NCBI RefSeq assembly: GCF_000002075.1
Contig: NW_004797970.1
Location: forward strand, 262,925 to 285,322
Source: Aplysia californica
Taxonomy: Eukaryota
Reading direction: 5' to 3'
DNA length: 22,398 bases
Position numbers and translations under genes: made by a program. Positions 1 to 22,398 of this stretch are shown here, one piece after another; position 1 is the stretch's first letter, and each line of letters starts with the position of its first letter. The notes below the pieces were generated by a model that was given only the letters and a program-made list of their open reading frames with translations, did no database searches and was not told where the DNA came from.

Positions 1-819
1 ATCCATGATCTAATATCTAGATCTAGATCTCAATCTCAAGGAGATTAAACGTAGAAGACGCATCTTTCTGATTGGCTGCTAATTTTAGTACTGTGATGTC
101 ATCACTTCCTGGGATACCCACATGGAACGACGTTTTCGGTAACTTTTTGGATTCCTAGATCTAGATCTAATACTTGGACGTGATGGAAGATCCTAGAATG
201 TTGATGCTTAGAACAGTAAGATTAAGAACGCTGATGCTTGTTGAAATAGAAACACAGTAAACACAAAGACAACAAATCGCACGAAAATTGCCGTAAAGAC
301 GCGGGAGGATTAGATCTAGATCCACCCCCCCCCCCCCATACACATTCTACATCACTAATATATATATAAATAGATTGCCCTGATCTATAGAAAAAACAAA
401 AAGAACTTCAAAGCTACAGATTATAATTTATGGGACTGTTGGTCAGTCGGGCGGAGGAGAAGAGAAAAAACAAACTGTCTGGGACCGGGATCGAATCGCT
501 CCTAAAATCATTGCATGACTTCAAATGCAGACGCACTCTGTATTCGGCCATCAGAACTTCCGAGAGCGAGAGGTAGGTTAAGCATCATATACATAGACAC
601 TTCCATCTTTGGTGCCATGCGGTTGGCTATACTTAGAATCTAGAGATGTAGTCATGTGATCGGAGGGGTAGTACCTGGTCTGACATCAAACAAGATGGGC
701 GCCTTACCTAAAAATAGTTTGCATCTTTCTACGTTTAATCGCATGTGGTGGTCATTCGTTTCTGACAACTGACGTATAAATGGAATGGCCCCCAACAGTT
801 CAATTATCATACTATTCTA

Positions 820-885
820 TATCTAGATCTAGATCTAGAGTCGTCTAGAGTTCTAGATCTAATATCTAGATTTTAGATCTAAGGG
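820..885. repeat. (TCTAGA)n-derived microsatellite, imperfect. Shorter runs of the same motif lie at 17-35, 155-175, 310-322, 990-1010, 1035-1050, 1085-1105, 1305-1330, 3091-3125 and 6379-6400.
   Basis: This is a direct read of the sequence. Confidence 0.85.
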
Positions 886-1518
886 AGTGTATACAGACCC
901 GGTAACCGGGAACAAAGTCACAAAGTATACAGACCCGGTAGTGGAACTCTTTTGTGATTTTGGAAAGTTTCAAGCGCCCTCTTGGCTCTGGGTAGACCTA
1001 GATCTAGGTTCTTCTATATATCTATGGCCTAGGCTAGGTCTAGATCTAGACAGACAGACATAAATCATTGATCTAGTTTCGAGGCTAGCCTAGATCTAGA
1101 TCTAAATTCTAAATGAAGATTGTGGATGTCTTTTCGTTGAACGATCGTTTTTCCTCTGTTTTGGAGATGGAGGAATCACAATTTGAAGAAAAGAACAATG
1201 TCATAATTTCTCTCGAGCATTCATCCTCTCTATTTCTCTCTCTGTCGCTCGCATTCTCTTTTTCTTTGTTCGTCTCTGTCTTTCTTTCTCCCCACCTATT
1301 TTCCACTAGATCTAGATTCTAGATCTATATCTTTCTCTCGTTCCCTCCTGCCAACTGGGGCATGTCATACATTTTGCTAGCACTTCCCCCTGCTCTCTCT
1401 CTCACACACACACACTACCGGGTCTGGGCGCTGAAACTTTCCGAAATCACAAAAGAGTTCCCTTACCGGGTCTGTATACTTCGTGACTTTGTTCCCGGTT
1501 ACCGGGTCTGTATACACT
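886..1518. mobile_element. Foldback or MITE-like element with roughly 100-bp terminal inverted arms (886-990 and 1418-1518) and a microsatellite-rich interior
   Basis: The left arm agtgtatacagacccggtaaccgggaacaaagtcacaaagtatacagacccggtagtggaactcttttgtgattttggaaagtttcaagcgccc is about 95% identical to the reverse complement of 1418-1518. Each arm contains a direct subrepeat GTATACAGACCCGGTA x2 and a palindromic core cccggtaaccggg. The interior has (TCTAGA)n runs and a CT-rich tract. No target-site duplication is evident. Confidence 0.6.
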
Positions 1519-1639
1519 TCGATTTCGATAGAGAGGAGGATCATTTGAATTTCCCCCAAGACATCATACCCATAATAAATTATACTCTACAGAGACAGAC
1601 AAGATATTGGGATCTGCTAATGTTCAAAGAGGCCAAGAT

Positions 1640-1766
1640 ATCTAGATTCTAGATCCAGATATCTAGATCTAGATCTAGATCTAGATCTAGATCTAGACTT
1701 AGAATCTAGATGTAGATGTAGATGTAGATCTAGCCTACCTAGAATCTAGATCTAGTTCTAGATTTA
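1640..1766. repeat. (TCTAGA)n/(AGATCT)n palindromic hexanucleotide microsatellite with degenerate (TGTAGA)n tail
   Basis: This is a direct read of atctagatctagatctagatctagatctagatctagacttagaatctagatgtagatgtagatgtagatctag... Confidence 0.9.
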
Positions 1767-3481
1767 CCTGTTGTACATATCCACCATCATTTCCATTTCA
1801 AGTTCATTTACAAATTTCACAGCAGCATCGCTGAGTTCTGGCTGGGCAGCCATTTTGACACTAAATATGGGATAAGCTGGAGTTGTGTGAGTGACAAATT
1901 TAAGTCACTGGCACAGCGACAACAAAACTCCGACAATAAATGTCGAGATTCAAGTCTTAATTTTCTTCGAACTTTCCAGCGTCCTTCCCACTTGTCACTG
2001 TTGCACCATGTGTGTCTTGTAAACAAAAGTCAGAGTCACTTCCCTTTTGACCTCTAGAGGCCCGACCGCCGGTTGGTCAGATCTTCATGAGAATGAACGC
2101 TAAAGTGGGGGAAAAATATGATAACAATAATCAAAATAACAAAACAAGGCAGCGCCTCAAGTTATTAGGATGTTCTCTTGTTTGCAAAACAAAATTCGTC
2201 TAAAATGTCCAACAAATTATTCAGTACTTAATCTAATCATACAGCTCAAGGGTCCACATATTTAGCTCTGTTGTATGAAGTGCTCGTAACTTTTGTAATA
2301 AAAAAAAAAAGAAAGAAAGTAAAAAGAGAAGCAGCGTTCATTTTGCTTGTCCTGTAATAGTTGTCGACAGTTTGTTTTGAAAAAAATAACAAAACAGAAC
2401 GACCTACTAAACTGTTAAATAGATAATGTGATTCTGTTTATATTAACAGAAAAACGTGTTTTTGGCTTGGATCAAGGACCCCTCGACTTGACATAGTCTA
2501 AAGGCTTCTAAAACATGCTTTCGCTGAACTGAACAATAAATACAAAAAAATACTAGTCACTTATCATACAAAAATAGATCGGTCTGCCTAGAGGGTAATT
2601 TTTTTTTCTTCAGAAACTGGACGATTAATGGAGAAACATAATGTTCATCCTACTTCTGATTTTGGTCATGCCATCAGAGACATGCCATTTAGTCAAGTGT
2701 AGCCAATCAACGAGATCGACACAATTGTAAACAAAACAAATCACACGACCAATCGTTGACATGGAAATTCCTTCTTCCCCGAAACAACTTAATATTACCT
2801 AATTTCGATTACAGCTGTTCACGAGGAACGCTATGCTCGAGATGACCAGGCATTCACTGACCCGTCCGTTATCTTATTATAGAATCTATGTGACTGAGAG
2901 TTGTTGGATCCCACAAGACAGATTGTAAACCTCAACTCATGTTAAATGTGATAGCTTCTAATCGACATTAGGCCTAGTTTTGCTTGTTAAAGGTAAGAAA
3001 ACTTACAGTTTGTCGCTTTTCGGGCTTTTTTTCTTCTTTCTCTCTCTTTTAAAAACAAAAAACGGACCTCTTCCCTGTCCCTGTCATCTAGAATTCTAGG
3101 TCTGGATCTAGATCTAGATCTAGATAGCATAGCTTGAGAAGTTGCTGTATTGTAAACGTTATTATAAAGTGCTAAAGTAAAGATTAAAGTTAAAGGGTGA
3201 TTCACTCATCACTGATTGTCTTGAAGAATTCCCAAAAATGGTCATTATCTATCATAACTTAAGAATATGTGGCCATTGCCAATGGGCAATAGTTGAGCAG
3301 GTTCAATTGTACTTCACTTTCACTTTCACTACTTCACTCCTTTCTTGTACAATTCTACAGTTTTTCCACCCATGTCTGATCAACACTTGGTGATCTAGTA
3401 GTTCTGTTCGTTAAAGTCCATGATCCATTTGTTTTTAGTTTTTACATCCAGAGAAGAAATCCAGAAGTCTTGATGGAAAGT

Positions 3482-4075: not shown

Positions 4076-4120
4076 GGGGGGCATGCCCCCCCCTCCCCCC
4101 CCCCCCCCCCCCCCACCTCC
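4076..4120. repeat. G6-CATG-C8-T-C20 homopolymer palindrome-like tract, followed by a similar cagggggcaagcccccc at 4136-4152
   Basis: This is a direct read of the sequence. Confidence 0.85.
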
Positions 4121-4189
4121 ATAATTTTATTAGGTCAGGGGGCAAGCCCCCCTACTCTTGACTTTAACGAACGAAACTACAAAAACGCC

Positions 4190-5422: not shown

Positions 5423-5656
5423 CAGAAGTCAAAACCCACACGGCCGAAACCGGATTATCCCAGATTGAGTCCTTTCAATGTCAACAGGCTTGCATCATCC
5501 TTGTGAGATGGAAAATTAGAGGGATTGAATAATTGTCATATAGGTCTATCAAGGTGTGATTTGTTAGCTCTTCTTGTAAGTACTGTACTTGTACTTGTAC
5601 ATCAAGCCTTGGACTTTGGAGGACACTTTGCTGTTATGTTTGCCTGTTTTATTTTA

Positions 5657-5705
5657 GGGAGTGTATACAGACTCAGTAACCGGGAACAAAGACACAAAGT
5701 ATACG
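5657..5705 (+). repeat. Solo partial copy (about 48 bp, 4 mismatches) of the 886-1518 foldback arm
   Basis: The string gggagtgtatacagactcagtaaccgggaacaaagacacaaagtatac at 5657-5705 matches gggagtgtatacagacccggtaaccgggaacaaagtcacaaagtatac at 883-931. Confidence 0.7.
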
Positions 5706-7638
5706 TGTCACGACGTGGTGGAATCAGGCACTCGTCAATTTTTGGCTATGTAGAGTTATGGGTATCACCTGAAAGCTTGTTCATTTGCTTTGCATTCAAT
5801 TTAAAAAATATCCATCTTTCTTGAATAGAAGTTGAAATACTTGCGATTGAAGGAGGTGGGGTCGCCCGGTTTCAGAGGTAAAATTAGGGAGAAAATGGCG
5901 GCCAAAGGTTGGTAACTTCAATGGCCTAAAGCTGAAAAATATATATTTTGTGCCTTTAACTCATTCGCTATGCCGAGCCGTTGGGGGCGGCGCGGCTAAT
6001 GTGCCGTCAGTACGCTAAGCCGCCCCCGGCGGCTCGAGAACCGATCTTCAATATTAGTTTAGTAAAGATTCTATTCCAATCCGCATATCGATGTTAAAAT
6101 AAAGGTCATGATATAATGTTGACTTTCGGGTCAAGCATTTCCACTGAAAATCGGAAGTTTAGATTCAGTTTTGAAACGCGATTTCGTAGTTTATTCGACT
6201 TTGTTTTATCGCGATGCCAAAATTATAGCCCGGACACCAGTCTTAGTAATTTTACACAACAAAATCTATCATTATTTTGCCCACTAAAGAAGTGTAGGAC
6301 TCTTTTTTATAATATTGATACGATTGGACTCATATTGCCAATGCACTGTTATTTAGAAATCAATATTTTTGAGTGCCAGATCTAGGTCTAGATCTAAATT
6401 GTCAAAATATGTTTTTCTTCCCAAAATCAATACTTTATGATGAAATTACCCAAAAGATGCCACTCAAGACATGTATAGGTTTATTCCAAATGCAATTCTG
6501 AATATTTCCATATTAGATACGAGTGGGTTTTTATCTGTTTGTGATCGTTTTTCAAGATTATAAAAAAAATTTTTTTCCAATATCGGATGTTATGATCCAA
6601 ATGTACAAATATTATGGAATGTATGTGAATAACTGCAAACTTTTCGATATTTTCCAGTTCTATATTCATTTATGGTTGTTGTGATATATCATTTGACTAG
6701 GTGCAAGCCCTGAGTTTCACCAAAGATTTAAAAAATTTTATTTTCAAATTTTATCCGCATCCAATCAAAATTGTGTTGCATAATGGCCTCTTACAGGAAC
6801 CAAAGTTGAAAAATACATAAATGAACTTTACAGATGTATTCTACAATCCATACTGAAAATATTGGTATATAATATGTTGATATTTATTTGAATTTGTCGC
6901 CCCAAAGACCTTTTAACTGCCCACTAGTCATCATCTCATTCGCCCTCCCGAAAAAAAATTAGTCCGCAAGCCGAAAATAATACGTAGCGAATGAGTTAAT
7001 CAACGTTTGTTGAGCCAAAAAATAAAAATTCAACAAAATTGCCAAACTGACAGAAAAATGCCTGTTTCTTCAATTTCACTAATTTTGACGAGCACCTGAT
7101 GTCACCACTCTGCCTCACATACAGTATTCAGACTCGGCAGGGGAAATCTTTTGTGGCATTACAAAGTTCTATCTGACTTTTTTTGGGGCCATTTTGAGTT
7201 ACTAAGACCATGGCCATGAGGTCAGAGACCAAATGACAAATACTCTTTCAGAAATTCTGCTACATCAAAATCATAAGCTATTCAGAGTTGTTATATCAAG
7301 AACTGCATTCAAGAAAGCTTGACATGTTGTGAAACTAAAACTCTGATGTCAAATTTCTCAAAACTAGGTACTGAGCTGGGGTCCGAGCAGCTCAGGTAGA
7401 ACTTTGTAATTCTAAAAGTAGCATTGTATAGCACTTGTCCTGCTAATTTTTATCTGCTTTACATGACATTGACTTTTTATATATATATATCTGTAGCAAA
7501 ATGAAGTTTTTTTAATTGTTATTTTTTTCTGAACTGATATTTAATTACTACTACTAAGCCTAAATGCATTGTAGTTTTCACGCTGTGGACCATTCTGGGG
7601 GGTTTCAGGAGGACATGCCACCCTGAGGTAAAATCTGT

Positions 7639-7659
7639 GGGGGGGGGGGGGGGGGGGGG
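7639..7659. repeat. Poly-G tract (21 nt)
   Basis: This is a direct read of the sequence. Confidence 0.9.
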
Positions 7660-9207
7660 TGTTACAGGGACTGTTTTATTCCATAATTTAATGTTTTACC
7701 AAATCAGCTTTGAAATTTTTCTTGAAAATAATTGACTTGCGACAGTTTTAGTGGCTACCTGATCTGCAGCAAAAATATGGCCATTTGACCCTCAAGGAGT
7801 GCATCTCTGTGCGGGAGTGAAAGTAAAAATGTGACCTTACATTTTTCCATCCTTGTAAACTTAACCAACATGTACATCTGCCTTGAGATAAGCCTGAAAC
7901 AGAGGACTCATTATTGCATATGGTACGAATGTCTAAGCCTAGTTTCTACTGTTTGGGTATATCTAAATATGTACTATGGGAAGAGGTGTTGAGTTCCTAG
8001 TTTGGTTAAATTTATCAGTTACAGAAGTTCGAACCTGTTGACTTTGTATTTTGTATAGAATATCATAGTTAGTCGTGGTTGTGGTTAGGGTTTGCGCTGG
8101 ATGTAGTAACAATTTTGTAAAAAAAATTTGAAGGGGAATTGCATCAAATTCATTTTCTGTGGGCAGTCATAGTCGTACTAAGGCTCCACGTTCAAGTGCC
8201 CACGTTGAAGCTCTTTCTTTGTTCTTCAAAAGAAAAATTGTTGAACGCAATAACTTCAACTTTTCTCCTGTAGGTGAAGTAACTTGAATTATCTTCGTGT
8301 TTCTTTGGAAATCCAAGTCGCAAAACATGTTATATTGCAGGCCATTTTCTTGCGAATTTTATTTCAAATACCAGACGACTCCTACCTCCTTCAGTCACAA
8401 ATATATTGGCTTTTATTCAAGATAGATGGGTATTTCTTTTTAATCAAAGAAAAGCGAATGAACTGTCTTTAACATGATACCAATAACTCTGTGTGCCAAA
8501 AAATTGATGAGTGCCTGATTCTGCCTTGTCATGACACAATATTTTTGTTATTTTATGTGTGAGATGCAACAAAAAAGTAACTCAAGTGTTACAAAATTAG
8601 CAATTTAAACTGATCTCATTTTCATATTTCAAAAATACATTACCTCATTAGTAAATAGGCATACACTGATTTTAAATATTAATTAGAAGCCGATATATGT
8701 AAGCTTCTTAATTAAGTCACCCCTCTGGTATTCAGTTCTGAAAAATCTGGGTTTGAAGTTGGAAATTTAAATTTTCTCCAATACATGTGATGATTTTAAA
8801 AATTAACCCCCCCCCCCCCCTTTTCTTTTTTTTTAAAGCTTAAAAATGAAAAATGTAAATCAAAGTAACTCATTTTGGCAGAAAAAAGTTTGTTTTAAGG
8901 TTTAAATGATTACATTAAACTTTCTTTTGCCTCTTGAGCAATATGTTATATCTCAGCATAATTTAGCTGGTCTTTCTTTTCCCAAGAAATAATGAACCTG
9001 TTCTATAACTGTGTTAAAAAAGACAGGAAGGAAAGAAAGTGTAATCAGCTGGGTATTCTCTTGCAATTAGGATGTTTTATTCATTTACTTTTTCTTACTC
9101 TGTTGATTTTTTGTTTTCTAAAGCATCTGTCAATTTCATGTCACTAACTTTATTGTTTCTTTCAACTCAGATTCTGTGTATTTGTGCAAGAAACCAGTGG
9201 AGGCAAC

Positions 9208-9245: not shown

Positions 9246-9589
9246 GTAAGGAAATTGATGATTGACTTAGTGATGTGAAAATATCAGGAAATATAAGTAA
9301 TTTAATTTTTTTACAAAGGTTTTGTTTCCTGAATTGTCTTACAGCAACAGGGAATGACTCATTTTTGTCCTTTCAATGAGTCTGTCTGACACTTTATTTC
9401 CCTATACTTCAAAGTAGCTAAGTAAAGAAAAATCTTTTTATTGTGTTCTTTCGTTGCGGTATAAGTTGACATTTTTTTTTTTTACACTACTGCTCTGTTG
9501 ACATGAGTTTCTATTTTAGTGAAGGAGCCTGATTTCCTTTCATTTCAGTTTGGCTTTGGCTGTATTTTTGTCTCTTATTTATTTTACAG

Positions 9590-9782
9590 CAAGCGTGACA
9601 TCTCTTCGTCCAACTTTGTAATGCACGAGATGCACTGTCGCCGACATATTGTCCTTTGTGACCACTGCCAGGAACCTATACCTCGCTCGGAGCTGGAGCA
9701 GCATTTCAATGACGTACATGCCAAAACGCCATGTGTACTGTGCAAGATGGAAGTAGCGAAGGAGAATATGGAGAAACATATG
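9590..9782 (+). CDS. XAF1: XAF1-like coding exon 2 (TRAF-type zinc fingers: KRDISSSNFVMHEMHCRRHIVLCDHCQEPIPRSELEQHFNDVHAKTPCVLCKMEVAKENMEKHM)
   Basis: The acceptor is ttattttacag| at 9589 and the donor is catatg|gtatgg at 9783, with phase 1 in and phase 0 out. The Cys/His spacing aligns with human XAF1 residues about 8-75 (CRNCKRHVVSANFTLHEAYC...LCPECEEPVPKETMEEHC...GCTMCQQSMQKSSLEFH). The open frame is in the ORF track at 9519-9809. Confidence 0.85.
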
Positions 9783-12062
9783 GTATGGAAAGTTATGTTT
9801 TTTGTTTAAGAACATGTGTGTAATATAATCTTGATATTGTTCGATACCCTTACTTTTTTGCTGATAATTTATAATCAGAGACTCTAAAAATAATACAGTA
9901 AATGTTTTTAATACTCTCTTTATAGTTTTTGTCTTTTAAATGTCAACTGTTTTTATCCTGGCCGTACCCCCACGGAATCTGTACCTGTCCTGGGGCCTCC
10001 GCCCCATATAAGACCGCCCAATATAAGATGGAATTCGGGCTGTATTTCTTACATTTACTCTCAGATTTTAAGGAAATTTGACAGTTATGTTAAAAATTGA
10101 ATATAGTATCTGAAAATGTTAGTGGTATTGCACCATGTAGATTTTATGGTATATTCCACCATCCAACTTGCCCTGATTGCCTCGCCTACAACGTCCCCTT
10201 GGATTTATAGATCTACCCTACCCATCGGTACTGCTCGAATTCCAGCACTGGTCCCTTCACCATGATCTGAATCATTATTAGATGAGTCTAATTCCTGTTT
10301 GTTATCGTACACAATGGAGTTTACAGCACTTGATTCAGAGTCACTTTCATCAAATTAGTCTCATTCCCCCTCACAACCCAGTGACACTTCAAGAAGTACT
10401 TTGTCAGTTGTGAATGTGCGTTTTCAAGACATTTTTCATGCTTCTACACCCATCAGAAACAAAGAAATCACTGTACATTGGAAAATTGAAGTATTCAAAC
10501 TGAGCTAGCATCGCTGTATTTGTGTATTTTGGTAATTACAAGCAGAACTAGCTGTTTCACGTGACCATATAGCTGTTCAGAGTTTACTCGTAGCCCGGTC
10601 TGGTCCTCGTTATGAGTACACACTTAGCTGGGATAAAAAGAATTAAGGAAATTAATGTCCAACCCTCTGTTGGCTACAAAAGAAGAAAAAAAGTTTATGA
10701 AGTCTGAAAAGATAACTGAACTTTTTAACTTACAAAAATAACAAAATAATGTGACATGTTGGGAACACTGATATATTTTTGCGGAGATTTTATTTGCTTT
10801 TGCTTGAACAGTCGATTAAATGGATGTTGGAGGATTCAGCTTCTTAAGCATATATATACTTTTTTTATATTTGGCGTAGTGTGTTGCTTTGATCTTGTAC
10901 ACAACTACCACAACAAGAGAGTCTTTGTGTCAATTTTTTTTTCTTTTCTTCTTTCTTTACAAAAAAAATCTCATGGTTCCATGTATCATCCTGAAAACAA
11001 CTGCTACCACAATTGTTAACATAATTATTTATCACTGTACTGGATACAACATTGCATATTTCAAGAGAAGGTGACGCCTGTCACACAGTGCTAACAGAAT
11101 GTTGCAAAGTGTAGTAGGCTTGATCATTCACAGAAAAGTCACATTTGGTACTGGGAAGATGAAGCCTGTGCTTCAGTTTAAAGATTGAATTACAAATTTA
11201 AAAAACAACAACTTTGAAATCTGTTGTACCATTTGTATTTTTTCATGAATGTTTTTGTTCTTTGTTGCTAGTTTCTGAACTGTAGTATTCAGAAATGTTT
11301 TCCTTTGATCTTTTTTCAGGAACTAGTTTTTTTATGATGAACAGAGAAAAAATCACTGTGCTATAGCTTGTTTACTTTCGTCTGGATTAAATGAATTTTA
11401 AGTTGTTTATTAATTCAACAATTCACATGTGACTTTGAATGACAATTCATGGCACAGTGACCAAGAGAAATTTTTTATAAAAAAAGAAATCTTGATCTGG
11501 TAAGAAAAACGTTTCTTTATTTGGTCCCTATATTAAGTACCACTCTTTGGGTGCATACATAGGACCACCACAATAATGATTTACAGTAACTTAGCCTTCA
11601 AATCGGTCATTTTGAGACAGCGACAACACGCTGCCCCCACATTTCAGTGTAAGCCTGTAGATTGCAGTCTATCTAGACATTTCCATTTGAGTCTCAAAAA
11701 GTGATCACCCGTCTGTTGGACTGCGTTTAAATGTGGTGTTGATAAAATTAGGTCAACTATTTGATGTTGTGGGTGAATGTTATAGATTCCATATAACTGT
11801 TCTTTTTCCTGCTCTCGGAAAATAATAAAGAAAATGTGTTAAAATCTTAGTTTGCAGTGACCTGAATTTAATTTTATTCATCCAACTTCTAGACCCACTT
11901 GCGGAAACCTGAGAAGATTGAACAGAGTGATTTGTTTTTATTTTGTTTTACCTGGAGACAGATGCTAGTGAACAAGCTATAGTTGAATGATGTCTGGTTA
12001 TCACATTAAGGATGTAGAACCCAGGAGAAAAATTGTCTGAGTAGATAAAATGTTTTTTCCAG

Positions 12063-12318
12063 GAAAATGACTGTGCCAAGAAGCCAATGCATTGTCAGTT
12101 CTGTGAGCTGAGTTTCCCGAAAGCTGATTTGGCGTCTCACTTTGACTACTGCGGTAGCCGTACAGAGTGCTGCCCCCTGTGCCAGCAGTACATCATGCTC
12201 AAGGACATGGTTCAGCACGAAAACTCGGGATGCTCCTACCCTGAGCCGAAGCCCGCTGCCGCCCCAGCCAGCAGTAACACAGATCCCTTCCGCATGGAAG
12301 AACTTCACTATATGCTGG
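12063..12318 (+). CDS. XAF1: XAF1-like coding exon 3 (TRAF-type zinc finger: ENDCAKKPMHCQFCELSFPKADLASHFDYCGSRTECCPLCQQYIMLKDMVQHENSGC...)
   Basis: The acceptor is tgttttttccag| at 12062 and the donor is atgctgg|gtaact at 12319. The motif DYCGSRTECCPLCQQYIMLKDMVQHENSGC matches the human XAF1 motif ESYCGSRTELCQGCGQFIMHRMLAQHRDVC. Exon 2 joins exon 3 to give the same spacing as human (MEKHM-ENDCAKKPMHCQFC versus LEFHKANECQERPVECKFC). The exon ends with 1 extra nt (g). Confidence 0.85.
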
Positions 12319-12883
12319 GTAACTAACACAGTTCACTCTTTGAGAAAAGATTTACTTCATTGAGGATGCATATTCTGGTCATTTGGCAACTTTTTAAGAC
12401 ATGCTGTATCCACATAGATTTTTTCAGTTCTGTTTAATCTGAAACTTGAAAAGGGAGGCAACAACATGCATATTGTGATGCATCTGGCTCATGTTTCTGA
12501 TTTGTGTATGATGGTTTGAAATGTGCCACATTATTGCTGTTGGTCTGCTGCTGATCAGACATGTGATTCCCCTACATCCCTACAGTGTTTATAGCTGACG
12601 CTTTTTACTTTCTGGCTCTTAAAATTTTCTTCCTGACTAGATTTGCTTTTCCACGTCCTTTGCTTTTAGTCTTCAGTGACTGGTGCTTTTTTGGTTTGCG
12701 TGTAGGATTCTATGATTAGTCAATAAAAAAGAGTTACTGAAAATAATTAAAAGCTCTGGGCAAGTTTTCTGTGTGCTTCTCACAAGGGTTCAGTGGGCAC
12801 TGTCACTTAATAGCAAATACAGCAAAACTTTCAGTCTTTTGAATAAGGCAACAATGACTCCGGTCACTGACTAATCTTCAGCC

Positions 12884-14070: not shown

Positions 14071-14306
14071 TATCGTTCATCCAAGAAGCCACTTATTAAT
14101 TGGACCTATGGTTCAAACCTGCTCTAACAACCACCTTTTGAAGACAGTCACTTTTACAAACGACCACTTTTTGCATTAAAAAAATTTAGTGTGTCCTAGA
14201 CATTCACTTGTCTAAGACAAACACTTTTCTCATTGTCAATGAACCGTGGTCTTATTCAGTTGTGACTACTTTTTTGTTATTGAATTCTTACTGATTTTCT
14301 ATCAAA

Positions 14307-14408
14307 CCCCCCCCCCCCCCCCCGCCCCCCCACCCAAACCGCATCACCACCGCCACATCCTTACACCCTGCCCTACTCTCTCTCATAACACACACACACA
14401 CACACACA
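14307..14408. repeat. Poly-C tract (17 C, g, 7 C), C-rich spacer, then (CA)n microsatellite at 14388-14408, in intron 4
   Basis: This is a direct read of the sequence. Confidence 0.9.
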
Positions 14409-14600: not shown

Positions 14601-14778
14601 GTGAGTTTATACATAGGGAGGCCTGCCAAGTACTTTAATTAAATAGGAGCTCTCCCCTTTTTAAAAAAAAACTTGTTGGAGGGCCCTGATCGGATTTACA
14701 TAAAATTTGATTTTTTTTCTTTAATTTCCTTTCCTTTGGTCCTATGCGACTTATCTCCAGCCAGCTCTGTCCCATATA

Positions 14779-15000
14779 TCAGAGATCTTCGTCTTGATCT
14801 CGCTCCCGGGTGGATCTCAGCTTTCCTCTCTCTCTCTCCTTCCCTAAGGGGTTCTTTCTTATACTTTGTCTTGTCGTGATGTGGTTTGGCTTTCTGAGTG
14901 TTTGTCCAATCCATTGCCATCTTCTTCTCTTAATCCCTTGTTGTTTGCTTCGCCTTAAAAATGCTGCATTTCTGATAGTGTCCTGCCGGTGGATTTTCAT
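14779..15000 (-). mobile_element. Possible degenerate retrotransposon ORF fragment (basic G-K-R-x-R-G-R/K motif region)
   Basis: The minus-strand ORF 14779-15000 contains ...RKNPLGKERERGKLRSTRERD..., which loosely resembles the WNPQGKRKRGRP...TWRR motif seen in many invertebrate LINE proteins. The match is weak. Confidence 0.25.
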
Positions 15001-15363
15001 GATCTTCCTCAGGCAACCATTAATGAAGGACTGTAATTTATTTATGATCTGCTTTGTTAGTTGCAGTGTTTCTGATTCTTACAATAATGAATTTTTTACA
15101 TTTGTACTGAAAATCGTGATCTTTGTACTTGTTTTGATAAAAGCCTGCCTCCTTCTAAATGATCTAAATTAGGTGGATGGGACGTAAAAACTTCTGCATC
15201 TAAAAAATAAAGAAGAGTCAGGCCACTATATTATCTTTTGTTCTCCATGCATACAGTTCCTACAGATACAGTTGGGTTTGATATGTGATGGAGACCTGGT
15301 TTATACTAAGGTAGCTCCAAGTTGTTGTTTTTTCGCCTTCTGGTCAGTTTTGAGATACTTTAG

Positions 15364-15404
15364 AGGGCCTATTACATGTACAGGCCGACTGGACAGGTTT
15401 CTGG
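15364..15404. repeat. Left arm of a 41-bp inverted repeat (gggcctattacatgtacaggccgactggacaggtttctgggcc); its partner is at 17661-17701
   Basis: The reverse complement of 17661-17701 is gggcctattacatgtataggccgagcagacaggtttttgac. That gives 34 of 41 matches, including a 16-nt perfect core. Confidence 0.65.
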
Positions 15405-15469: not shown

Positions 15470-16850
15470 ATAGCCGGCCCGCCAGATGTCAAGAACCCAC
15501 AGCCGCTGCCTTTTCAAGCAGAATACAAAAAACTAATAGATAAATACCCCGGGCTCTTCACAGATGGCTCCAAAAAAGACAATGAAGTAGGCGCCGCAGC
15601 CCTATCTTCCAACAGTACACACCAGAGGAGACTCCATCCTGAAGCCTCCATTTTCTCTGCGGAGGCCACTGCCATTGACATGGCACTGGACTCTGTAGAA
15701 AATTCTCCTAACAAATCTTTCCTTATCCTTTCTGACTCTCTGTCTTGCATCACCTCACTCACAAACTACACACTCTTACACCCAAAAATAGTTAGGCTAC
15801 AACAGAAAATCCACACACTATCCGAAACAGGAAAAAACATCATGTTCGCATGGATACCCAGCTATGTGGGCATCCGAGGAAACGAGCAGGTAGACAACCT
15901 GGCGAAGAAAGCTTCATCCCTTCTGCTGGGATCAACGACATGGCACTGGACTCTGTAGAAAATTCTCCTAACAAATCTTTCCTTATCCTTTCTGACTCTC
16001 TGTCTTGCATCACCTCACTCACAAACTACACACTCTTACACCCAAAAATAGTTAGGCTACAACAGAAAATCCACACACTATCCGAAACAGGAAAAAACAT
16101 CATGTTCGCATGGATACCCAGCTATGTGGGCATCCGAGGAAACGAGCAGGTAGACAACCTGGCGAAGAAAGCTTCATCCCTTCTGCTGGGATCAACGACA
16201 AACACTCTCCCATAGACTGACTTTAGAAATAAAGTAAAAAAGTACACCTCCAGTCTGTGGGAGAGCCACTGGGAAAACCAGAAAAACAATAAACTATATG
16301 AAATAAAACCCAAACTAGAACAGCGAAATCCTTCGGACCTCTCCAGAAGAGACGAAGTCATTTTTACTCGATTGTGCATCGGACACACGGCCCTGACCTT
16401 CAAATACCTCCTACAGGGAGATGAGAAGCCGTTCTGTGTCGGATGCGACACAGATTTTACCATTAGACACATTTTAACAGAATGTCTAGACTTTGGAGAG
16501 ATCCGAAGGAAATATTATAAATGCAAGAAATTGCAGGATATTTTTTCCGTCGTTGTTCCCAGCAGAATTTAAAACTTTATAAAGGCCATTGGCCTTTATG
16601 GCCAGTTGTAGAGTGAATTTGATATTATTAAAAATTTTTATTGTTACTTAAAAGAGTTGTTTTAAATCACAAATGTATTTACACTGAATTTAAATATTTT
16701 AACTTTTTAGCATTTTAAAGTAAATTAGTTAACCAGTCGTGAAGTGAACTTTTGCTAAGGTGAACAACTTGTGTTTCGCGCGCTCATATGACCTTAGCAG
16801 TTGCGAGCGCCGTAAAACCCTATACTATACATACATACATACAAAGGATT
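15470..16850 (+). mobile_element. Non-LTR (LINE) retrotransposon, 5'-truncated 3' fragment: RNase H domain, C-terminal zf-RVT-like Cys/His motif, and AT-rich 3' UTR ending in an (ATAC)n tail
   Basis: The translated frame from about 15470 reads ...KYPGLFTDGSKKDNEVGAAALSSN...SIFSAEATAIDMALDSV...ILSDSLSCITSL...IMFAWIPSYVGIRGNEQVDNLAKKA, a canonical RNase H signature (DGS...AE...D...G.GNE.AD.LAK). Downstream, RLCIGHTALTFKYLLQGDEKPFCVGCDTDFTIRHILTECLDFGEIR matches the LINE ORF2 C-terminal zinc-binding motif. The stop is at 16570. The frame is disrupted by an internal duplication, so this is a dead copy. Confidence 0.8.
15679..16198 (+). repeat. 260-bp tandem duplication inside the LINE RNase H region (copy 1 about 15679-15938, copy 2 about 15939-16198)
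   Basis: The string catggcactggactctgtagaaaattctcctaacaaatc... at 15679 recurs at 15939. The two ORFs 15680-15958 and 15850-16215 contain the same peptide (MALDSVENSPNKSF...LLLGSTT). The junction is at gatcaacgaca|tggcactgg, with gaca microhomology. Confidence 0.85.
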
Positions 16851-17660
16851 TTCCTTGATCTAAATCCTAAATGTTATATTTTGAATTATTTTAAGGGAAA
16901 GGTATAATAATTTAAAAAATGAAAACTGATTTTAAAAGGTGTTAAAATCTATTGTTCAAGCACGTTTTGTCTTCCCTGCTATGTTTTAAAATTGAATTCC
17001 TTTCTTGATATCGATGTCAACTGAATGCCAAATTGGAAATGAATTTTCCAAGAATATATACTTTTAAAAAATCGTTGTTTTTTTAAAAGTTTGTATGCAT
17101 CTCACGTTTGTTAAACGTAAAAAGTTCATTTTCTCAAAATTATATGTCTATACCGTACCTAGCAAAATGTGCAATATCTCAAAAACTACTTGAGATATCT
17201 AAAAATTTCAAAAACCCCTGTGTTCAGCATTGAATTTCCTATAAGGTACAAGCCTTAACTCAAAATTGTCAAAATTGGACTTTTGGTACCTTTCTTTAGG
17301 CACACACACATATATGTCTCTTCGTCCATTCTCATGAAGTTTTTGACACCTTCTGGAAATGCTCTAAACTCATCCAGCAGATTTGTTTGTGATAGCGCAT
17401 TCCTCTTCAATAACCAATCCTTTGACCACATGCGACATTGTTTTCTTTGTTTTTGTTTTTTTTAAACTTGATAAAAATGGCTAAATCATCCAGAACTGTT
17501 CTGTCTGCCATGATGCACACACGTGTGTGAAATTTCACCCAGACTAGGCCTAGTGTGTAGAATATGTTGCTCGTGAGGTGCGGCATCCTTCAGATGGATT
17601 GTGGCGTGTAATACTAAACTAAGTGTCTTCGATTTCGTTTGGCTGTACGTCTTGCCTACA

Positions 17661-17701
17661 GTCAAAAACCTGTCTGCTCGGCCTATACATGTAATAGGCC
17701 C
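17661..17701. repeat. Right arm of the 41-bp inverted repeat bracketing 15364-17701 (which contains the + strand LINE fragment)
   Basis: See the left-arm entry. Confidence 0.65.
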
Positions 17702-18315
17702 TTAACCCTTTGAATTCTGGGCTCGTGGGCCTTTAATGGGTAAAACCCTGGACTTCTGAGTAATTTCCTTGATTTTTGTTAGGTATTCTTTTCTACTGCT
17801 TACTTTAGTGTTGTTCTTATCTATTTTTTTCATTTTTTGTTGTAATTATATCACATTGATGCTGCTGTTGGGTATTTGTGTTCTTTTCTGTAAACACGCA
17901 CCAAATTTAGGTTGGTATGTCATACCGATATTTCGGTACCCCAGGGTTTTTGTCGCGTTCTTTTTATACCGATATTTCGGTACAAAGGGTTCTAAGGGTT
18001 AATAATGCTTCATTTGTTCAAGACAATCGGCAGTTTGTAATTCTTGTTACATTCGTTGGATTTGTTTGTGCTATTATCTAATTATTATGTATATAGAATT
18101 TTTGTTTTAAAAAAAAAAAAGTTTTGTTAGCTTGCCATATGGCTCTATCGAAGAGAACTGGTTCTTTGTGCTTGGCATAAACATTCTAGAAATGTTATAG
18201 CAATTCAAAATTAGGTCTTATCATGTCAAATTGGAATGAACAATTCCTGTGAAAACATGTGAATGACAAAAGAGGTCAATAACATTTAACACTTGCTCAT
18301 TTCTAAGAATTGATT

Positions 18316-18835
18316 GGGGGGCTCTCGTGGCCTAGAGGTTAAGGTGTCCGCCTCTTATTCAAAGGTCCCAGGTTCGAATCCAGGTAGCAATGGAAACATT
18401 TTCTTCTCCAAAATTGTCTCCTTTCACCTCCCTTCTTTCCTGCCCTCTGACAATGTTCAGTAGTCTGCTTTCGTCTCCACGTTCTACCCCCACACCCTCA
18501 CCTCCTTTGCCCCCTCCTCTGGGTTCCTGACTCATTCTGCAGCCTTTCTACTGCTACTCCTTGGCTCCTTCTTTCTGTTGTCTTTCAGCCACACCCTTGA
18601 TTTTCTGGTAGGAAGGGTCTACACCTAGCCTTCTCAGACAAGGGCAAAAAATCTTGGAGGTCCTGTGTTCAAGTTGCGCAAGTTAAAAATCCCTTGGTGG
18701 TCTCAAATGGATAAGAGTAGGCTTCAGCCACCACTTGGGCAAAATTCGAAATTTCCTACCAACTGAAAATGTTTAATGTTTCCCGTGCTCTCACATGACC
18801 TTGTGCAGTTGCGAGCGCAGTAAAACACTTATAAA
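18316..18835 (+). mobile_element. tRNA-derived SINE, copy 1 (tRNA-like head with A box TGGCCTAGAGGTTAAGG and B box GGTTCGAATCC; body; LINE-derived 3' tail)
   Basis: The head ggggctctcgtggcctagaggttaaggtg...ggttcgaatcc and the following roughly 200 nt are 85-90% identical to the copy at 22111-22398. The tRNA cloverleaf is degenerate, with no complementary D-stem or anticodon stem. The tail ctcacatgaccttgtgcagttgcgagcgcagtaaaac at about 18790-18830 matches the LINE 3' end at 16776-16815. Confidence 0.75.
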
Positions 18836-19515
18836 AAGGAAAAAAGAATTGATTTGTCTACTGTTCAATCTCGATCATCAATTCTCTGTGAACATTTAAC
18901 TGTTTCGTTCAACTATCCCATTGTATTACTTTTCTGTTGACCAGTTTCTGCTGTTAGTTTGAGAAATGTTGGTGCAGTGAAAAGTCTCATATGTTCTTCA
19001 TTCTTTTCAAGAGTTTTTAGGAGGAAAGGAGCCTTTGGAAGAGATGTGATTTGTTAATGGAAATTTCCTCTTCTTTCATAATTTGCTGTTGTCAACAATG
19101 TATTCAGTTAATATTTATCAAAAGTGGGAGAATTATTTTTTTAATTGTGAAATTTTGACAATACTCATGAATAGTTTGATGAAATGATAGATCTCTTGTA
19201 TTTTTCTTCGTAAACATCTTTTGATGTTGGGAATTTGTTTTGGTATTAATTAATCACTGAACGAAGCCTAATATTATAAGCTTTATTAAAGTTGGCACGA
19301 TAAGTGCTTTCAGTGTTTCTTTAATTCTGGCATTGAAACTAAGGCAATATTGCATTATTTGCAGCATCAACGGCAGTATGTATGTTTTTTTAATGTTATT
19401 CTGAAATTTGTCACTTTGATTAAGAAAAATTGTTTCCTTGCACTTTTAGAAAAATTGCGAAGGATCATTTATAATTGATCTGTGCCATAAAGTTTCTTTG
19501 AAATTTTGTTCCCAG

Positions 19516-20159: not shown

Positions 20160-20335
20160 TAGTTGTAGTATTTAGAGCCTGATTTACATTATTTTATTGC
20201 CATTTCCCTTTGACAGACCAAGTCAAAGCTTTTCTTTTGATTGCCTTGCTGGTATTCTTTCTGTGGTCTCCTCACACATCCAAATGGGGACAGTGTTTGT
20301 AATCACTCTACTTGTGTTACTCTGTTCTTTTTCAG

Positions 20336-20415
20336 CATATGAAGATGAGGATATGAGCATCCCGTGTGAGTTTTGTGAAATGGAGATACCTTTGACGACC
20401 TACTTAGAACATGTT
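20336..20415 (+). CDS. XAF1: XAF1-like coding exon 7 (AYEDEDMSIPCEFCEMEIPLTTYLEHV; first C-C-H part of a CCHC UBZ-type zinc finger)
   Basis: The acceptor is ctgttctttttcag| at 20335 and the donor is catgtt|gtaagt at 20416. C-x2-C-x11-H is followed in exon 8 by x3-C, the same spacing as human XAF1 CHYCNQMIPENKYFHHMGKC and NEMO [21 protein letters not shown]. Confidence 0.7.
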
Positions 20416-20834
20416 GTAAGTTATTGTGTGTCACTTATGTCGAGTTTTGTTTTTGTGTGCAAAAAGGACACTGTTGTCTTTTTTAGTTGTTGTGGAAAAG
20501 ACTGCGTACTTGTATTTGACATAATTGTCTTATGTTTGCTGTTTTTTAAAACTCTTCAGTCGCCTTTTATTTAGTTTTTTCCTTGACGTTGGTGTCAGGT
20601 TTATTTTTCTAAATAAAAATTGTACTGGCCATTTTTAAAATTTCTGTCTGTGTTTTTTGTTAATTTTGTTTAAAGCCTTGAGTCCTGACATTACAATAAA
20701 CAAAATTGTTAGCTGTTCTTTTGTTCTTATAGGGCTCCTTTGGCTCTTCATTTCCCTGGCCCCCTCCCCCTTTTTTTGTTAAAAAAAAAGCTTCTTTCAA
20801 ATACTCTAGGTTATGTTGATCTTTCCTGTCTCAG

Positions 20835-22110: not shown

Positions 22111-22398
22111 GGGGCTCTCGTGGCCTAGAGGTTAAGGTGTTGGCCTCTCATTCAAAGGTCCCGGGTTCGAATCCGGGTAGTGACCGAAAAATTTTCTTCT
22201 CTAAAATTGTCTCCTTTCACCTCCTTTCGTGCTCTCTAGCAATGTTCTGTTGTCTGCTTTCATTTCCACTTTCTGCCCCCATCCCCTCACCTCCTTTGCC
22301 CCCTTCTCTGGGCTCCTGACTCTTTCTGCAGTCTTTCTACTGCTACTCCTTGGCTCCTCCTTACTGCTGTCTTTCTGCCACACCCCTGATCTTCTGGT
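22111..22398 (+). mobile_element. tRNA-derived SINE, copy 2 (same family and orientation as 18316; truncated by the window end)
   Basis: The strings ggggctctcgtggcctagaggttaaggtgttggcctctcattcaaaggtcccgggttcgaatccgggtag and aaaattgtctcctttcacctcc... are collinear with copy 1 through cacacccctgatcttctggt at the window end. Confidence 0.8.

What the first reader, a model, noticed from the sequence alone, without database searches (positions are those of the whole stretch)
16750..18835. LINE-SINE partner pair: SINE 3' tail matches the 3' end of the RNase H-containing LINE
The LINE 3' UTR ends ...tttcgcgcgctcatatgaccttagcagttgcgagcgccgtaaaaccc at about 16776-16815. The SINE copy at 18316 ends ...cccgtgctctcacatgaccttgtgcagttgcgagcgcagtaaaacac at about 18790-18830. 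A shared roughly 40-nt 3' tail between a tRNA-derived SINE and a LINE in the same genome is the classic signature of a SINE that borrows the reverse transcriptase of that LINE family. Both members of the pair are present within 2 kb here, so the partnership can be read directly.
Basis: partly seen in the sequence, partly recalled or inferred. Interest (0 to 1): 0.6.

Follow-up and report, generated by a model that had tools for sequence, protein, structure and literature searches.

The report
SINE sharing a LINE's 3' hairpin tail
A short tRNA-headed retrotransposon (SINE) in what looks like a mollusc genome ends in the same small RNA hairpin as a neighbouring RNase H-bearing LINE; this is the textbook sign that the SINE borrows that kind of LINE's reverse transcriptase, so it is a real but ordinary finding.

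Summary
LINE 3' end 16772-16821 and SINE 3' end 18777-18829 are 83% identical over 53 columns, far above chance.

The SINE (18316-18843, 528 nt) is genuine. It has A and B boxes, an exact 11-bp target-site duplication, and a second copy at 22111-22398.

The LINE (about 15473-16843) is a dead, 5'-truncated copy of an RNase H-bearing family. Its relatives encode endonuclease, reverse transcriptase and RNase H.

The shared tail is a two-stem hairpin followed by GUAAAAC. It recurs at the 3' ends of LINE relatives only 40-50% identical in protein, and the stems show compensatory changes. This fits 'stringent' 3'-end recognition by the LINE reverse transcriptase.

There is one correction. The SINE's LINE-like part is about 200 nt, not 40. 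That longer part is colinear with the 3'UTR of a different LINE lineage (L011), not with the window LINE's AT-rich UTR. The window LINE is therefore a plausible partner family but may be only a cousin of the true donor.

No further SINE copies could be retrieved, so identity at the consensus level is untested.

The host is probably a mollusc, possibly a heterobranch gastropod. Partnerships between Nimb/I-type LINEs and SINEs are already described in molluscs. I rate this a new member of a known kind, of low interest.

The parts
15473..16611 (+). Coding remnant of a 5'-truncated, dead LINE copy: RNase H domain plus a C-terminal Cys/His domain.
   Evidence: tblastn with relatives starts at 15473-15494 and runs to 16608. 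Pfam RNase_H E 1.5e-10. There is a TAG at 16213-16215 and a TAA at 16570-16572 where the sister copy L001 reads CAG and TTG.
15677..16196 (+). Two perfect 260-nt tandem units inside the LINE RNase H region. They shift the reading frame.
   Evidence: 100% identity. L001 carries a single unit.
16612..16779 (+). AT-rich LINE 3'UTR upstream of the hairpin. It has no similarity to the SINE upstream of 16772.
   Evidence: Sequence. 88% identical to the L001 UTR. The SINE-versus-UTR alignment covers only the last 53 nt.
16780..16820 (+). LINE 3' hairpin and terminal motif. Outer stem GCGCTC 16780-16785 pairs with GAGCGC 16805-16810. Inner stem TGAC 16789-16792 pairs with GTTG 16800-16803. GTAAAACCC follows at 16812-16820.
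   Evidence: Fold. Covariance-model hit 16779-16817, 24.2 bits. Covariation.
16821..16843 (+). LINE terminal simple repeat: TATACTATA followed by (CATA)3CA.
   Evidence: Read directly. Relatives end in (TCATAC)n, (TAC)n or (AAAC)n at the same place.
18305..18315 (+). 5' target-site duplication of the SINE, AAGAATTGATT.
   Evidence: Exact 11-nt direct repeat with 18844-18854.
18316..18392 (+). tRNA-related SINE head with A box TGGCCTAGAGG at 18328-18338 and B box GGTTCGAATCC at 18371-18381.
   Evidence: Rfam tRNA full-length match 18321-18389, but only 16.9 bits (gathering score 29). ARAGORN is negative. The head is conserved in copy 2.
18393..18627 (+). C/T-rich SINE body of unknown origin.
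   Evidence: Shared with copy 2 at 87%. No match to any LINE locus.
18628..18784 (+). LINE-3'UTR-like domain of the SINE, colinear with the L011 3'UTR.
   Evidence: Local score 71 vs shuffles 18.8 +/- 2.2. blastn E 3.5e-11. Colinear to the very end. An nhmmer profile built from the SINE/L011 alignment itself matches nothing else in the loci held.
18785..18828 (+). SINE 3' hairpin and terminal motif. Outer stem GTGCTC 18785-18790 pairs with GAGCGC 18813-18818, including one G-U pair. Inner stem TGAC 18796-18799 pairs with GTTG 18808-18811. GTAAAACAC follows at 18820-18828.
   Evidence: Alignment to the LINE tail. Fold. Covariance-model hit 18784-18825, 19 bits.
18829..18843 (+). A-rich SINE terminus, TTATAAAAAGGAAAA.
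   Evidence: Read directly. It lies between the terminal motif and the 3' target-site duplication.
18844..18854 (+). 3' target-site duplication of the SINE.
22111..22398 (+). Second copy of the SINE (head and C/T-rich body), cut off by the end of the window before its tail.
   Evidence: 87.3% identity over 292 nt, E 2e-100. Similarity begins at the same 5' base.

Best explanation
The element at 18316-18843 is a tRNA-headed SINE. Its 3' ~200 nt derive from the 3'UTR of an RNase H-bearing, endonuclease-plus-reverse-transcriptase LINE of the I superfamily, possibly Nimb.

Its last ~45 nt form a two-stem hairpin followed by GUAAAAC. The LINE family represented by the dead copy at 15473-16843 carries the same module at its own 3' end.

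Inferred mechanism:
1. RNA polymerase III transcribes the SINE from its A and B boxes.
2. The reverse transcriptase of an active LINE with this hairpin binds the hairpin and terminal motif on the SINE RNA in trans.
3. That enzyme copies the SINE into a nicked target by target-primed reverse transcription, which produces the 11-bp target-site duplication.

What is shown: the sequence match, the SINE's anatomy, the conservation and covariation of the hairpin across the LINE clade, and the LINE domain content.

What is inferred: recognition by the reverse transcriptase, and which LINE subfamily actually does the work.
For: - Tail match is 83% over 53 columns, well above chance.
- The SINE has A and B boxes, an 11-bp target-site duplication and a second copy.
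- The LINE has RNase H. Relatives L011 and L012 encode Exo_endo_phos + RVT_1 + RNase_H.
- The same architecture (stem, AUGRCC loop, stem, GUWAAR, microsatellite) sits at the 3' ends of LINE relatives that are 40-51% identical in protein: L002, L003, L004, L010-L015.
- Covariation on the hand-registered alignment A5: 86.8% of cells paired, 6 of 11 pairs with changes on both sides, score 0.431 vs 0.273 +/- 0.035 (0 of 500 shuffles reach it), and 25-65% paired when partners are slid. The Infernal-aligned full-length tails give the same picture.
- The SINE keeps the outer stem through a G-U pair, and its inner stem is identical to the LINE's.
- Sister copy L001 has the last 24 nt that it covers identical to the window LINE, while the UTR just upstream has diverged.
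- Divergence levels are similar: LINE copies 89%, SINE copies 87%, tails 83-89%.
- Published mollusc LINE-SINE tail homologies span 35-61 bp at 72-95% identity and include Nimb partners (PMC11481361).
Against: - Only one complete SINE copy and one complete LINE tail from this genome could be examined. L001 stops inside the tail.
- The window LINE copy itself is non-functional.
- The SINE's LINE-like region beyond the last 53 nt matches L011, a LINE lineage only ~41% identical in protein to the window LINE, and not the window LINE's own UTR.
- The terminal repeats differ: (CATA)n versus an A-rich end.
- No target-site duplication was found for the LINE.
- The tRNA match is below Rfam's threshold and ARAGORN finds nothing.
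- Runs of four T inside the SINE (18400-18403 and 18602-18605) could act as weak polymerase III terminators.
- Alignment A5 was registered by hand with the structure in mind, so its pairing percentage is somewhat favoured.
Confidence: 0.75

Rival explanations
1. The SINE was built from, and is mobilised by, a different subfamily of the same LINE clade, one whose 3'UTR resembles L011's. The window LINE family is only a cousin that shares the clade-wide terminal hairpin and plays no part in moving the SINE.
For: SINE 18628-18830 is colinear with the last ~220 nt of the L011 3'UTR, down to GT(A/T)AAACAC. The window LINE UTR (16612-16771) is AT-rich and unrelated to the SINE. Swapping of tails and partners among mollusc SINEs is described as a 'mosaic' pattern (PMC11481361).
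Against: Over the terminal hairpin the SINE is much closer to the window LINE (score 59, including an exact 14-mer) than to L011, L003 or L002 (scores 32 or less over the tail). In stringent-type systems the terminal stem-loop is the part thought to be recognised, according to the reviews read here (PMC3747384; PMC4824008). No LINE with an L011-like UTR from this genome was seen.
Confidence: 0.3
2. The tail similarity reflects module shuffling between SINE families. The SINE acquired a ready-made tail by recombination or template switching from another SINE, so it does not directly indicate its current reverse-transcriptase donor.
For: Homologous tails shared between different SINE superfamilies are reported in bivalves and gastropods.
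Against: Whatever the route of acquisition, the tail is the LINE clade's own conserved 3' hairpin. The functional inference therefore stays the same.
Confidence: 0.1
3. The 528-nt element is not an amplifying SINE family. It would instead be a one-off chimeric retrocopy, formed by a template switch from a LINE 3'UTR to a tRNA and later duplicated segmentally.
For: Only two copies were seen. The tRNA score is sub-threshold.
Against: The two copies are 13% diverged. Similarity begins at the same 5' base in different flanking DNA. Copy 1 has its own exact 11-bp target-site duplication.
Confidence: 0.04
4. The match is chance or low-complexity similarity.
For: None beyond the short length of the match.
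Against: Shuffle and BLAST statistics. Both matches sit at element 3' ends. The same structured motif occurs at the 3' ends of nine other LINE loci.
Confidence: 0.01

Closest known systems
Nimb (I-superfamily) LINEs partnered with tRNA-derived V and Meta SINEs in bivalve molluscs (Martelossi et al. 2024, PMC11481361; Nishihara et al. 2016, PMC4824008)
   Same: The host is probably a mollusc in both cases. Both involve a tRNA-headed SINE and a LINE-derived 3' tail of a few dozen bases. Reported tails are 35-61 bp at 72-95% identity; here it is 53 columns at 83%. Those papers place Nimb in the LINE I superfamily (PMC11481361); the LINE here carries RNase H, which I take to be typical of I-like clades from general knowledge. 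Tails are followed by microsatellites.
   Different: The clade of the window LINE was not placed by reverse-transcriptase phylogeny. The SINE's central domain could not be compared with the V, Meta or Nin-DC domains, because no sequences are held in the papers. The host here looks like a gastropod rather than a bivalve.
UnaL2 LINE / UnaSINE1 of the eel (Kajikawa and Okada 2002, as cited in PMC4824008 and PMC3747384)
   Same: It works the same way: a conserved 3' stem-loop plus a short terminal repeat shared by the LINE and the SINE. That is the basis of 'stringent' recognition by the reverse transcriptase.
   Different: UnaL2 belongs to the L2 clade; from general knowledge L2-clade elements lack RNase H. 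The dependency was shown experimentally there, whereas here it is inferred. In the eel pair, from my recollection of the original work, LINE and SINE share the same terminal repeat; the papers read here state only that UnaL2 ends in TGTAA repeats. Here the terminal repeats differ.
Gecko SINE / MosquI (I-74_AAe) of Aedes aegypti, an I-clade pair listed in Ohshima 2013 (PMC3747384, Table 1)
   Same: A tRNA-promoter SINE carrying the tail of an I-clade LINE.
   Different: The host is an insect.

Membership tests
tRNA-derived SINE | Polymerase III A and B boxes in a tRNA-related head | tested here: inconclusive
   A box TGGCCTAGAGG (18328-18338) and a consensus B box GGTTCGAATCC (18371-18381) are present and conserved in copy 2. 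The Rfam tRNA model aligns over its full length, but at 16.9 bits against a gathering score of 29. ARAGORN is negative.
tRNA-derived SINE | Short and non-coding | tested here: met
   528 nt, with no open frame longer than 64 codons on either strand.
tRNA-derived SINE | Flanked by target-site duplications | tested here: met
   Exact 11-bp AAGAATTGATT on both sides.
tRNA-derived SINE | Many dispersed copies in the genome | not testable with these tools
   Two copies in 22 kb. The genome is not in any searchable collection: pattern scans and a six-frame protein search found nothing.
Stringent-type LINE-SINE partnership | SINE 3' end homologous to the 3' end of a LINE in the same genome | tested here: met
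   83% over 53 columns, ending at the same GTAAAAC motif.
Stringent-type LINE-SINE partnership | Conserved 3' stem-loop supported by compensatory changes | tested here: met
   Six of 11 pairs show double changes. Pairing drops to 25-65% when partners are slid.
Stringent-type LINE-SINE partnership | Same terminal repeat on LINE and SINE | tested here: not met
   The LINE ends TATACTATA(CATA)3CA. The SINE ends TTATAAAAAGGAAAA. These are single copies, so the consensus state is unknown.
Stringent-type LINE-SINE partnership | Tail identity holds between family consensus sequences | not testable with these tools
   Only one SINE tail is available. The second LINE copy, L001, ends 24 nt into the tail.
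Stringent-type LINE-SINE partnership | SINE mobilisation depends on the LINE reverse transcriptase and on the tail | not testable with these tools
   This needs a retrotransposition assay.
I-superfamily / Nimb LINE | ORF2 with AP endonuclease, reverse transcriptase and RNase H | tested here: met
   The window copy retains RNase H and the C-terminal domain. Relatives L011 and L012 carry Exo_endo_phos + RVT_1 + RNase_H.
I-superfamily / Nimb LINE | Reverse-transcriptase domain groups with Nimb or I reference elements in a phylogeny | not tested
   No reference LINE sequences (Repbase, Dfam) were available. Database hits carry no clade names.

The most novel reading that the evidence does not exclude
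The ~140-nt domain of the SINE at 18628-18767 is a structured module of LINE 3'UTRs. It is conserved, with compensatory changes, between this SINE and the 3'UTR of a LINE from a different organism whose protein is only ~41% identical to the window LINE. If this domain corresponds to one of the 'highly conserved central domains' used to define SINE superfamilies, whose origin and role are still described as unclear, this would show that such a domain is a borrowed LINE 3'UTR element. That would suggest it serves reverse-transcriptase recruitment.
Probability: 0.12. Interest if true: 0.55.

Novelty: new member of a known kind. Interest (0 to 1): 0.22.

Why it matters
It gives a clean, locally readable example of a SINE carrying the 3' recognition hairpin of an RNase H-bearing LINE clade in a poorly sampled, probably molluscan genome. 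It also defines that hairpin (two stems, AUGRCC loop, GUWAAR, microsatellite) across several LINE lineages. That is useful for annotating repeats and predicting LINE-SINE partnerships, but it does not change how these elements are understood.

Tried and rejected
- **Pattern scans for more copies.** I scanned for the tail in JGI metagenome contigs. The five hits were all chance matches in GC-rich coding-like DNA. Viral contigs and prokaryotic genome contigs gave nothing.
- **Six-frame pseudo-protein search.** A six-frame translation of the SINE was searched against the protein collection to catch spuriously called ORFs on SINE copies. There were no hits.
- **Rfam.** The gathering-threshold search of the window found nothing. 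A snoR71-like match inside the SINE (E 0.71) is chance.
- **Sequence strings in papers.** Searches of the paper library and of supplements for tail, domain or head strings returned only unrelated primer matches, and no supplements are held. The SINE's central domain therefore could not be assigned to V, Meta, Nin-DC, MESC or any other named domain.
- **LINE target-site duplication.** None was found.
- **SINEs in the related LINE loci.** The extra tails found in L004 and L012 are those of further LINE copies, where I checked; the one at L004 12264-12328 belongs to a 5'-truncated LINE.
- **Automatic alignment of the tails.** MAFFT mis-registered the outer stem and RNAalifold then saw only 3 pairs. 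I replaced it with a hand-registered trimmed alignment and an Infernal alignment.
- **Host identification.** The word-indexed protein search with a TRAFD1-like exon found nothing. The exhaustive HMMER search did find relatives.
Full report
**1. Observation.**
Both quoted strings are present. The LINE string lies at 16774-16820 and the SINE string at 18782-18828. The best local alignment (16772-16824 vs 18777-18833) has 47 identities, 6 mismatches and 4 gap columns. It scores 59, against 21.3 +/- 2.2 (maximum 31) for shuffled SINE sequence. A self-BLAST of the window reports 83% over 53 columns, E 4.5e-7. The core 14-mer GCAGTTGCGAGCGC occurs only at these two sites, with 0.04 expected by chance.

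**2. The SINE.**
The element spans 18316-18843 (528 nt). It is bracketed by an exact 11-bp direct repeat, AAGAATTGATT, at 18305-18315 and 18844-18854.
- Its first ~75 nt align end-to-end to the Rfam tRNA model, but only at 16.9 bits against a gathering score of 29. ARAGORN finds no tRNA.
- It contains a good A box (18328-18338) and a consensus B box GGTTCGAATCC (18371-18381).
- A second copy at 22111-22398 is 87% identical and starts at the same base in unrelated flanking DNA. The window ends before its tail.
- No reading frame exceeds 64 codons.

This is a bona fide tRNA-related SINE, although the parent tRNA is undetermined.

**3. The LINE.**
Protein similarity to relatives starts at about 15473 and runs to 16608. 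The remnant encodes RNase H (Pfam PF00075, E 1.5e-10) and a Cys/His-rich C-terminal domain.

The copy is dead for four reasons:
- It is 5'-truncated.
- It contains a perfect, frameshifting 260-nt tandem duplication at 15677-16196.
- It has a TAG at 16213-16215 where the sister copy reads CAG.
- It has a TAA at 16570-16572 where the sister copy reads TTG.

That sister copy, L001, comes from ENA metagenome assembly ERZ17088427. It is 89% identical in DNA and 92% in protein over the full 169 residues by tblastn.

The true stop codon is at 16609-16611, and the 3'UTR runs to 16820. It is followed by TATACTATA(CATA)3CA. No target-site duplication could be found for the LINE.

More distant relatives, 40-51% identical in protein and found in marine and other metagenome assemblies, show the full architecture of endonuclease, reverse transcriptase and RNase H (L011 and L012). 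From general knowledge of non-LTR retrotransposons, this architecture points to the I-like group of clades. Published work places Nimb in the 'LINE I superfamily' and reports it as a SINE partner in molluscs (PMC11481361; PMC4758252). I could not test clade membership because no reference sequences were available.

**4. What the shared tail is.**
I read the 3' ends of nine related LINE loci: L002, L003, L004, L010, L011, L012, L013, L014 and L015. All of them end with the same architecture:
- an outer stem of 5-7 bp whose sequence differs between lineages (GCGCUC/GAGCGC, AGCGCU/AGCGCU, GACGCC/GGUGUC, GACGC/GCGUC, GGCAC/GUGCC);
- a short internal loop;
- a 4-bp inner stem (UGAC/GUYG, UAGC/GCUG or UGGC/GCUG);
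- an apical loop;
- then GU(A/U)AA(A/G), followed a few bases later by a lineage-specific microsatellite: (CATA)n, (TCATAC)n, (TAC)n or (AAAC)n.

Single-sequence folds recover this shape in most cases.

MAFFT mis-registered the outer stem, so RNAalifold saw little. I therefore made a hand-registered, loop-trimmed alignment of 11 tails (A5). On it:
- 86.8% of cells are paired;
- 6 of 11 pairs show changes on both sides;
- the covariation score is 0.431, against 0.273 +/- 0.035 for shuffles (0 of 500 reach it);
- pairing falls to 25-65% when partners are slid by 1-3 columns.

A covariance model built from A5 re-found every tail in the untrimmed loci, found nothing else in the window, and its own alignment gives the same counts. 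The caveat is that both alignments were fitted to the proposed structure.

The SINE keeps the outer stem through one G-U pair, and its inner stem is identical to the LINE's. In L001 the last 24 nt that the contig covers are identical to the window LINE, although the UTR just upstream has diverged. That pattern fits constraint on the tail.

**5. A correction to the picture.**
The SINE's LINE-like part is not ~40 nt. SINE 18628-18753 aligns with the 3'UTR of L011, with a score of 71 against 18.8 +/- 2.2 for shuffles and blastn E 3.5e-11. A global alignment is colinear from there to the very end, GTAAAACAC against GTTAAACAC. The two-sequence consensus fold shows several compensatory pairs, which is suggestive only.

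L011 comes from a Tara Oceans marine metagenome. Its protein is only ~41% identical to the window LINE's (P0006 rows) and has no closer relative among the sequences held here. The window LINE's own UTR is AT-rich and shares only the last ~53 nt with the SINE.

So the SINE's 3' ~200 nt look like the 3'UTR of a LINE lineage that is not the one sitting 1.5 kb upstream. Over the terminal hairpin itself, though, the SINE is clearly closest to the window LINE, with a score of 59 against 32 or less for the others.

**6. Limits.**
I could not obtain more SINE copies or a complete second LINE tail from this genome. The tail pattern returned only chance matches in JGI metagenomes. Viral and prokaryotic genome collections gave nothing, and a six-frame pseudo-protein search found nothing.

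**7. Host and literature.**
- An exon at 12045-12323 encodes a TRAFD1/XAF1-type zinc finger (Pfam PF21366, E 9e-10).
- Most of its best named relatives are from heterobranch gastropods: Plakobranchus, Bulinus, Physella, Lymnaea and Candidula at 42-47% identity. A chiton protein shares a 90% cluster with a shorter hit at 57% identity. The window is therefore probably molluscan, from a species not in the protein collection.
- Shared LINE-SINE 3' tails with stem-loops and compensatory changes are textbook (PMC3747384; PMC4824008).
- In bivalves, tail homologies of 35-61 bp at 72-95% identity, including Nimb partners for V and Meta SINEs, are already catalogued (PMC11481361).
- An I-clade pair, Gecko/MosquI, is listed for mosquito (PMC3747384).

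**8. Mechanism and rivals.**
The best-supported reading (confidence 0.75) has three steps:
1. The SINE is transcribed by polymerase III.
2. Its RNA presents the clade-specific hairpin and GUAAAAC end.
3. The reverse transcriptase of an active LINE carrying that hairpin copies it into new sites by target-primed reverse transcription.

The main rival (confidence 0.3, and partly overlapping with the above) is that the working partner is a sister subfamily with an L011-like UTR, and that the window LINE family is merely a cousin. Module shuffling between SINEs (0.1), a one-off chimeric retrocopy (0.04) and chance (0.01) are much less likely.

**9. Verdict.**
This is a new member of a well-known kind, and interest is low (0.22). 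The one thread that could be more interesting is whether the SINE's central domain, shared with a distant LINE's 3'UTR, corresponds to a named SINE 'highly conserved domain'. I could not test that.

Noticed in passing
window 15677-15936 and 15937-16196: A perfect (100%) 260-nt tandem duplication lies inside the LINE's RNase H region and shifts the reading frame. The sister copy L001 has a single unit. It is either a very recent local duplication or an assembly artefact.
   Followed up: partly
window 18628-18767; L011 3988-4141: A ~140-nt domain of the SINE body is homologous to an internal part of the 3'UTR of a distant LINE from a Tara Oceans metagenome, and the two-sequence fold shows compensatory pairs. 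Whether it equals a named SINE central domain (V, Meta, Nin-DC and so on) is unknown.
   Followed up: partly
window 17702-18002: A possible small DNA-transposon relic. It has 13-nt terminal inverted repeats, TTAACCCTTTGAA and TTCTAAGGGTTAA, each beginning or ending in TTAA (piggyBac-like, from memory). Inside are two exact copies of the palindromic 18-mer ATACCGATATTTCGGTAC at 17922 and 17966.
   Followed up: no
window 15364-15403 and 17663-17702: A 40-nt inverted match (88%) flanks the LINE on one side and sits next to the TTAA element on the other. It is probably two fragments of another repeat family.
   Followed up: no
window 12045-12323 (+); also 9507-9806 and 20176-20571 (+): The segment at 12045-12323 is an exon of a TRAFD1/XAF1-type zinc-finger gene (Pfam PF21366, E 9e-10). 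Most of the best named relatives are heterobranch gastropod proteins at 42-47% identity. The other two open segments contain similar Cys/His motifs but gave no Pfam hit. If they are exons of the same gene, the LINE and SINE would lie in its introns in the sense orientation.
   Followed up: partly
window 14699-15078 (-): An open segment on the minus strand (...RRRWQWIGQTLRKPNHITTRQS...) resembles, from memory, the C-terminal region of RTE-type LINE ORF2 proteins. Pfam gave no hit. It is possibly a second, unrelated LINE fragment directly upstream of the RNase H LINE.
   Followed up: no
window 886-979, 1426-1518 and 5656-5704: A repeat occurs as a 94-nt inverted pair (95% identical, about 450 nt apart), with a third partial copy at 5656-5704. 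It may be a MITE or foldback-like element. A further 197-nt inverted pair lies at 5705-5899 and 8341-8537 (75%).
   Followed up: no
window 1-3125; 4093-4121; 7639-7660; 14305-14330: The first 3 kb are dense with (GATCTA)n-type microsatellite tracts. Several long homopolymer C or G runs of 14-22 nt occur elsewhere.
   Followed up: no
L004 7939-8003, 11587-11651, 12264-12328; L012 1328-1392, 9927-9991, 11500-11564: The related LINE is highly repeated in the ENA long-read assemblies. One 90% protein cluster has 1156 members, and several copies with near-identical hairpin tails lie within 20 kb.
   Followed up: partly
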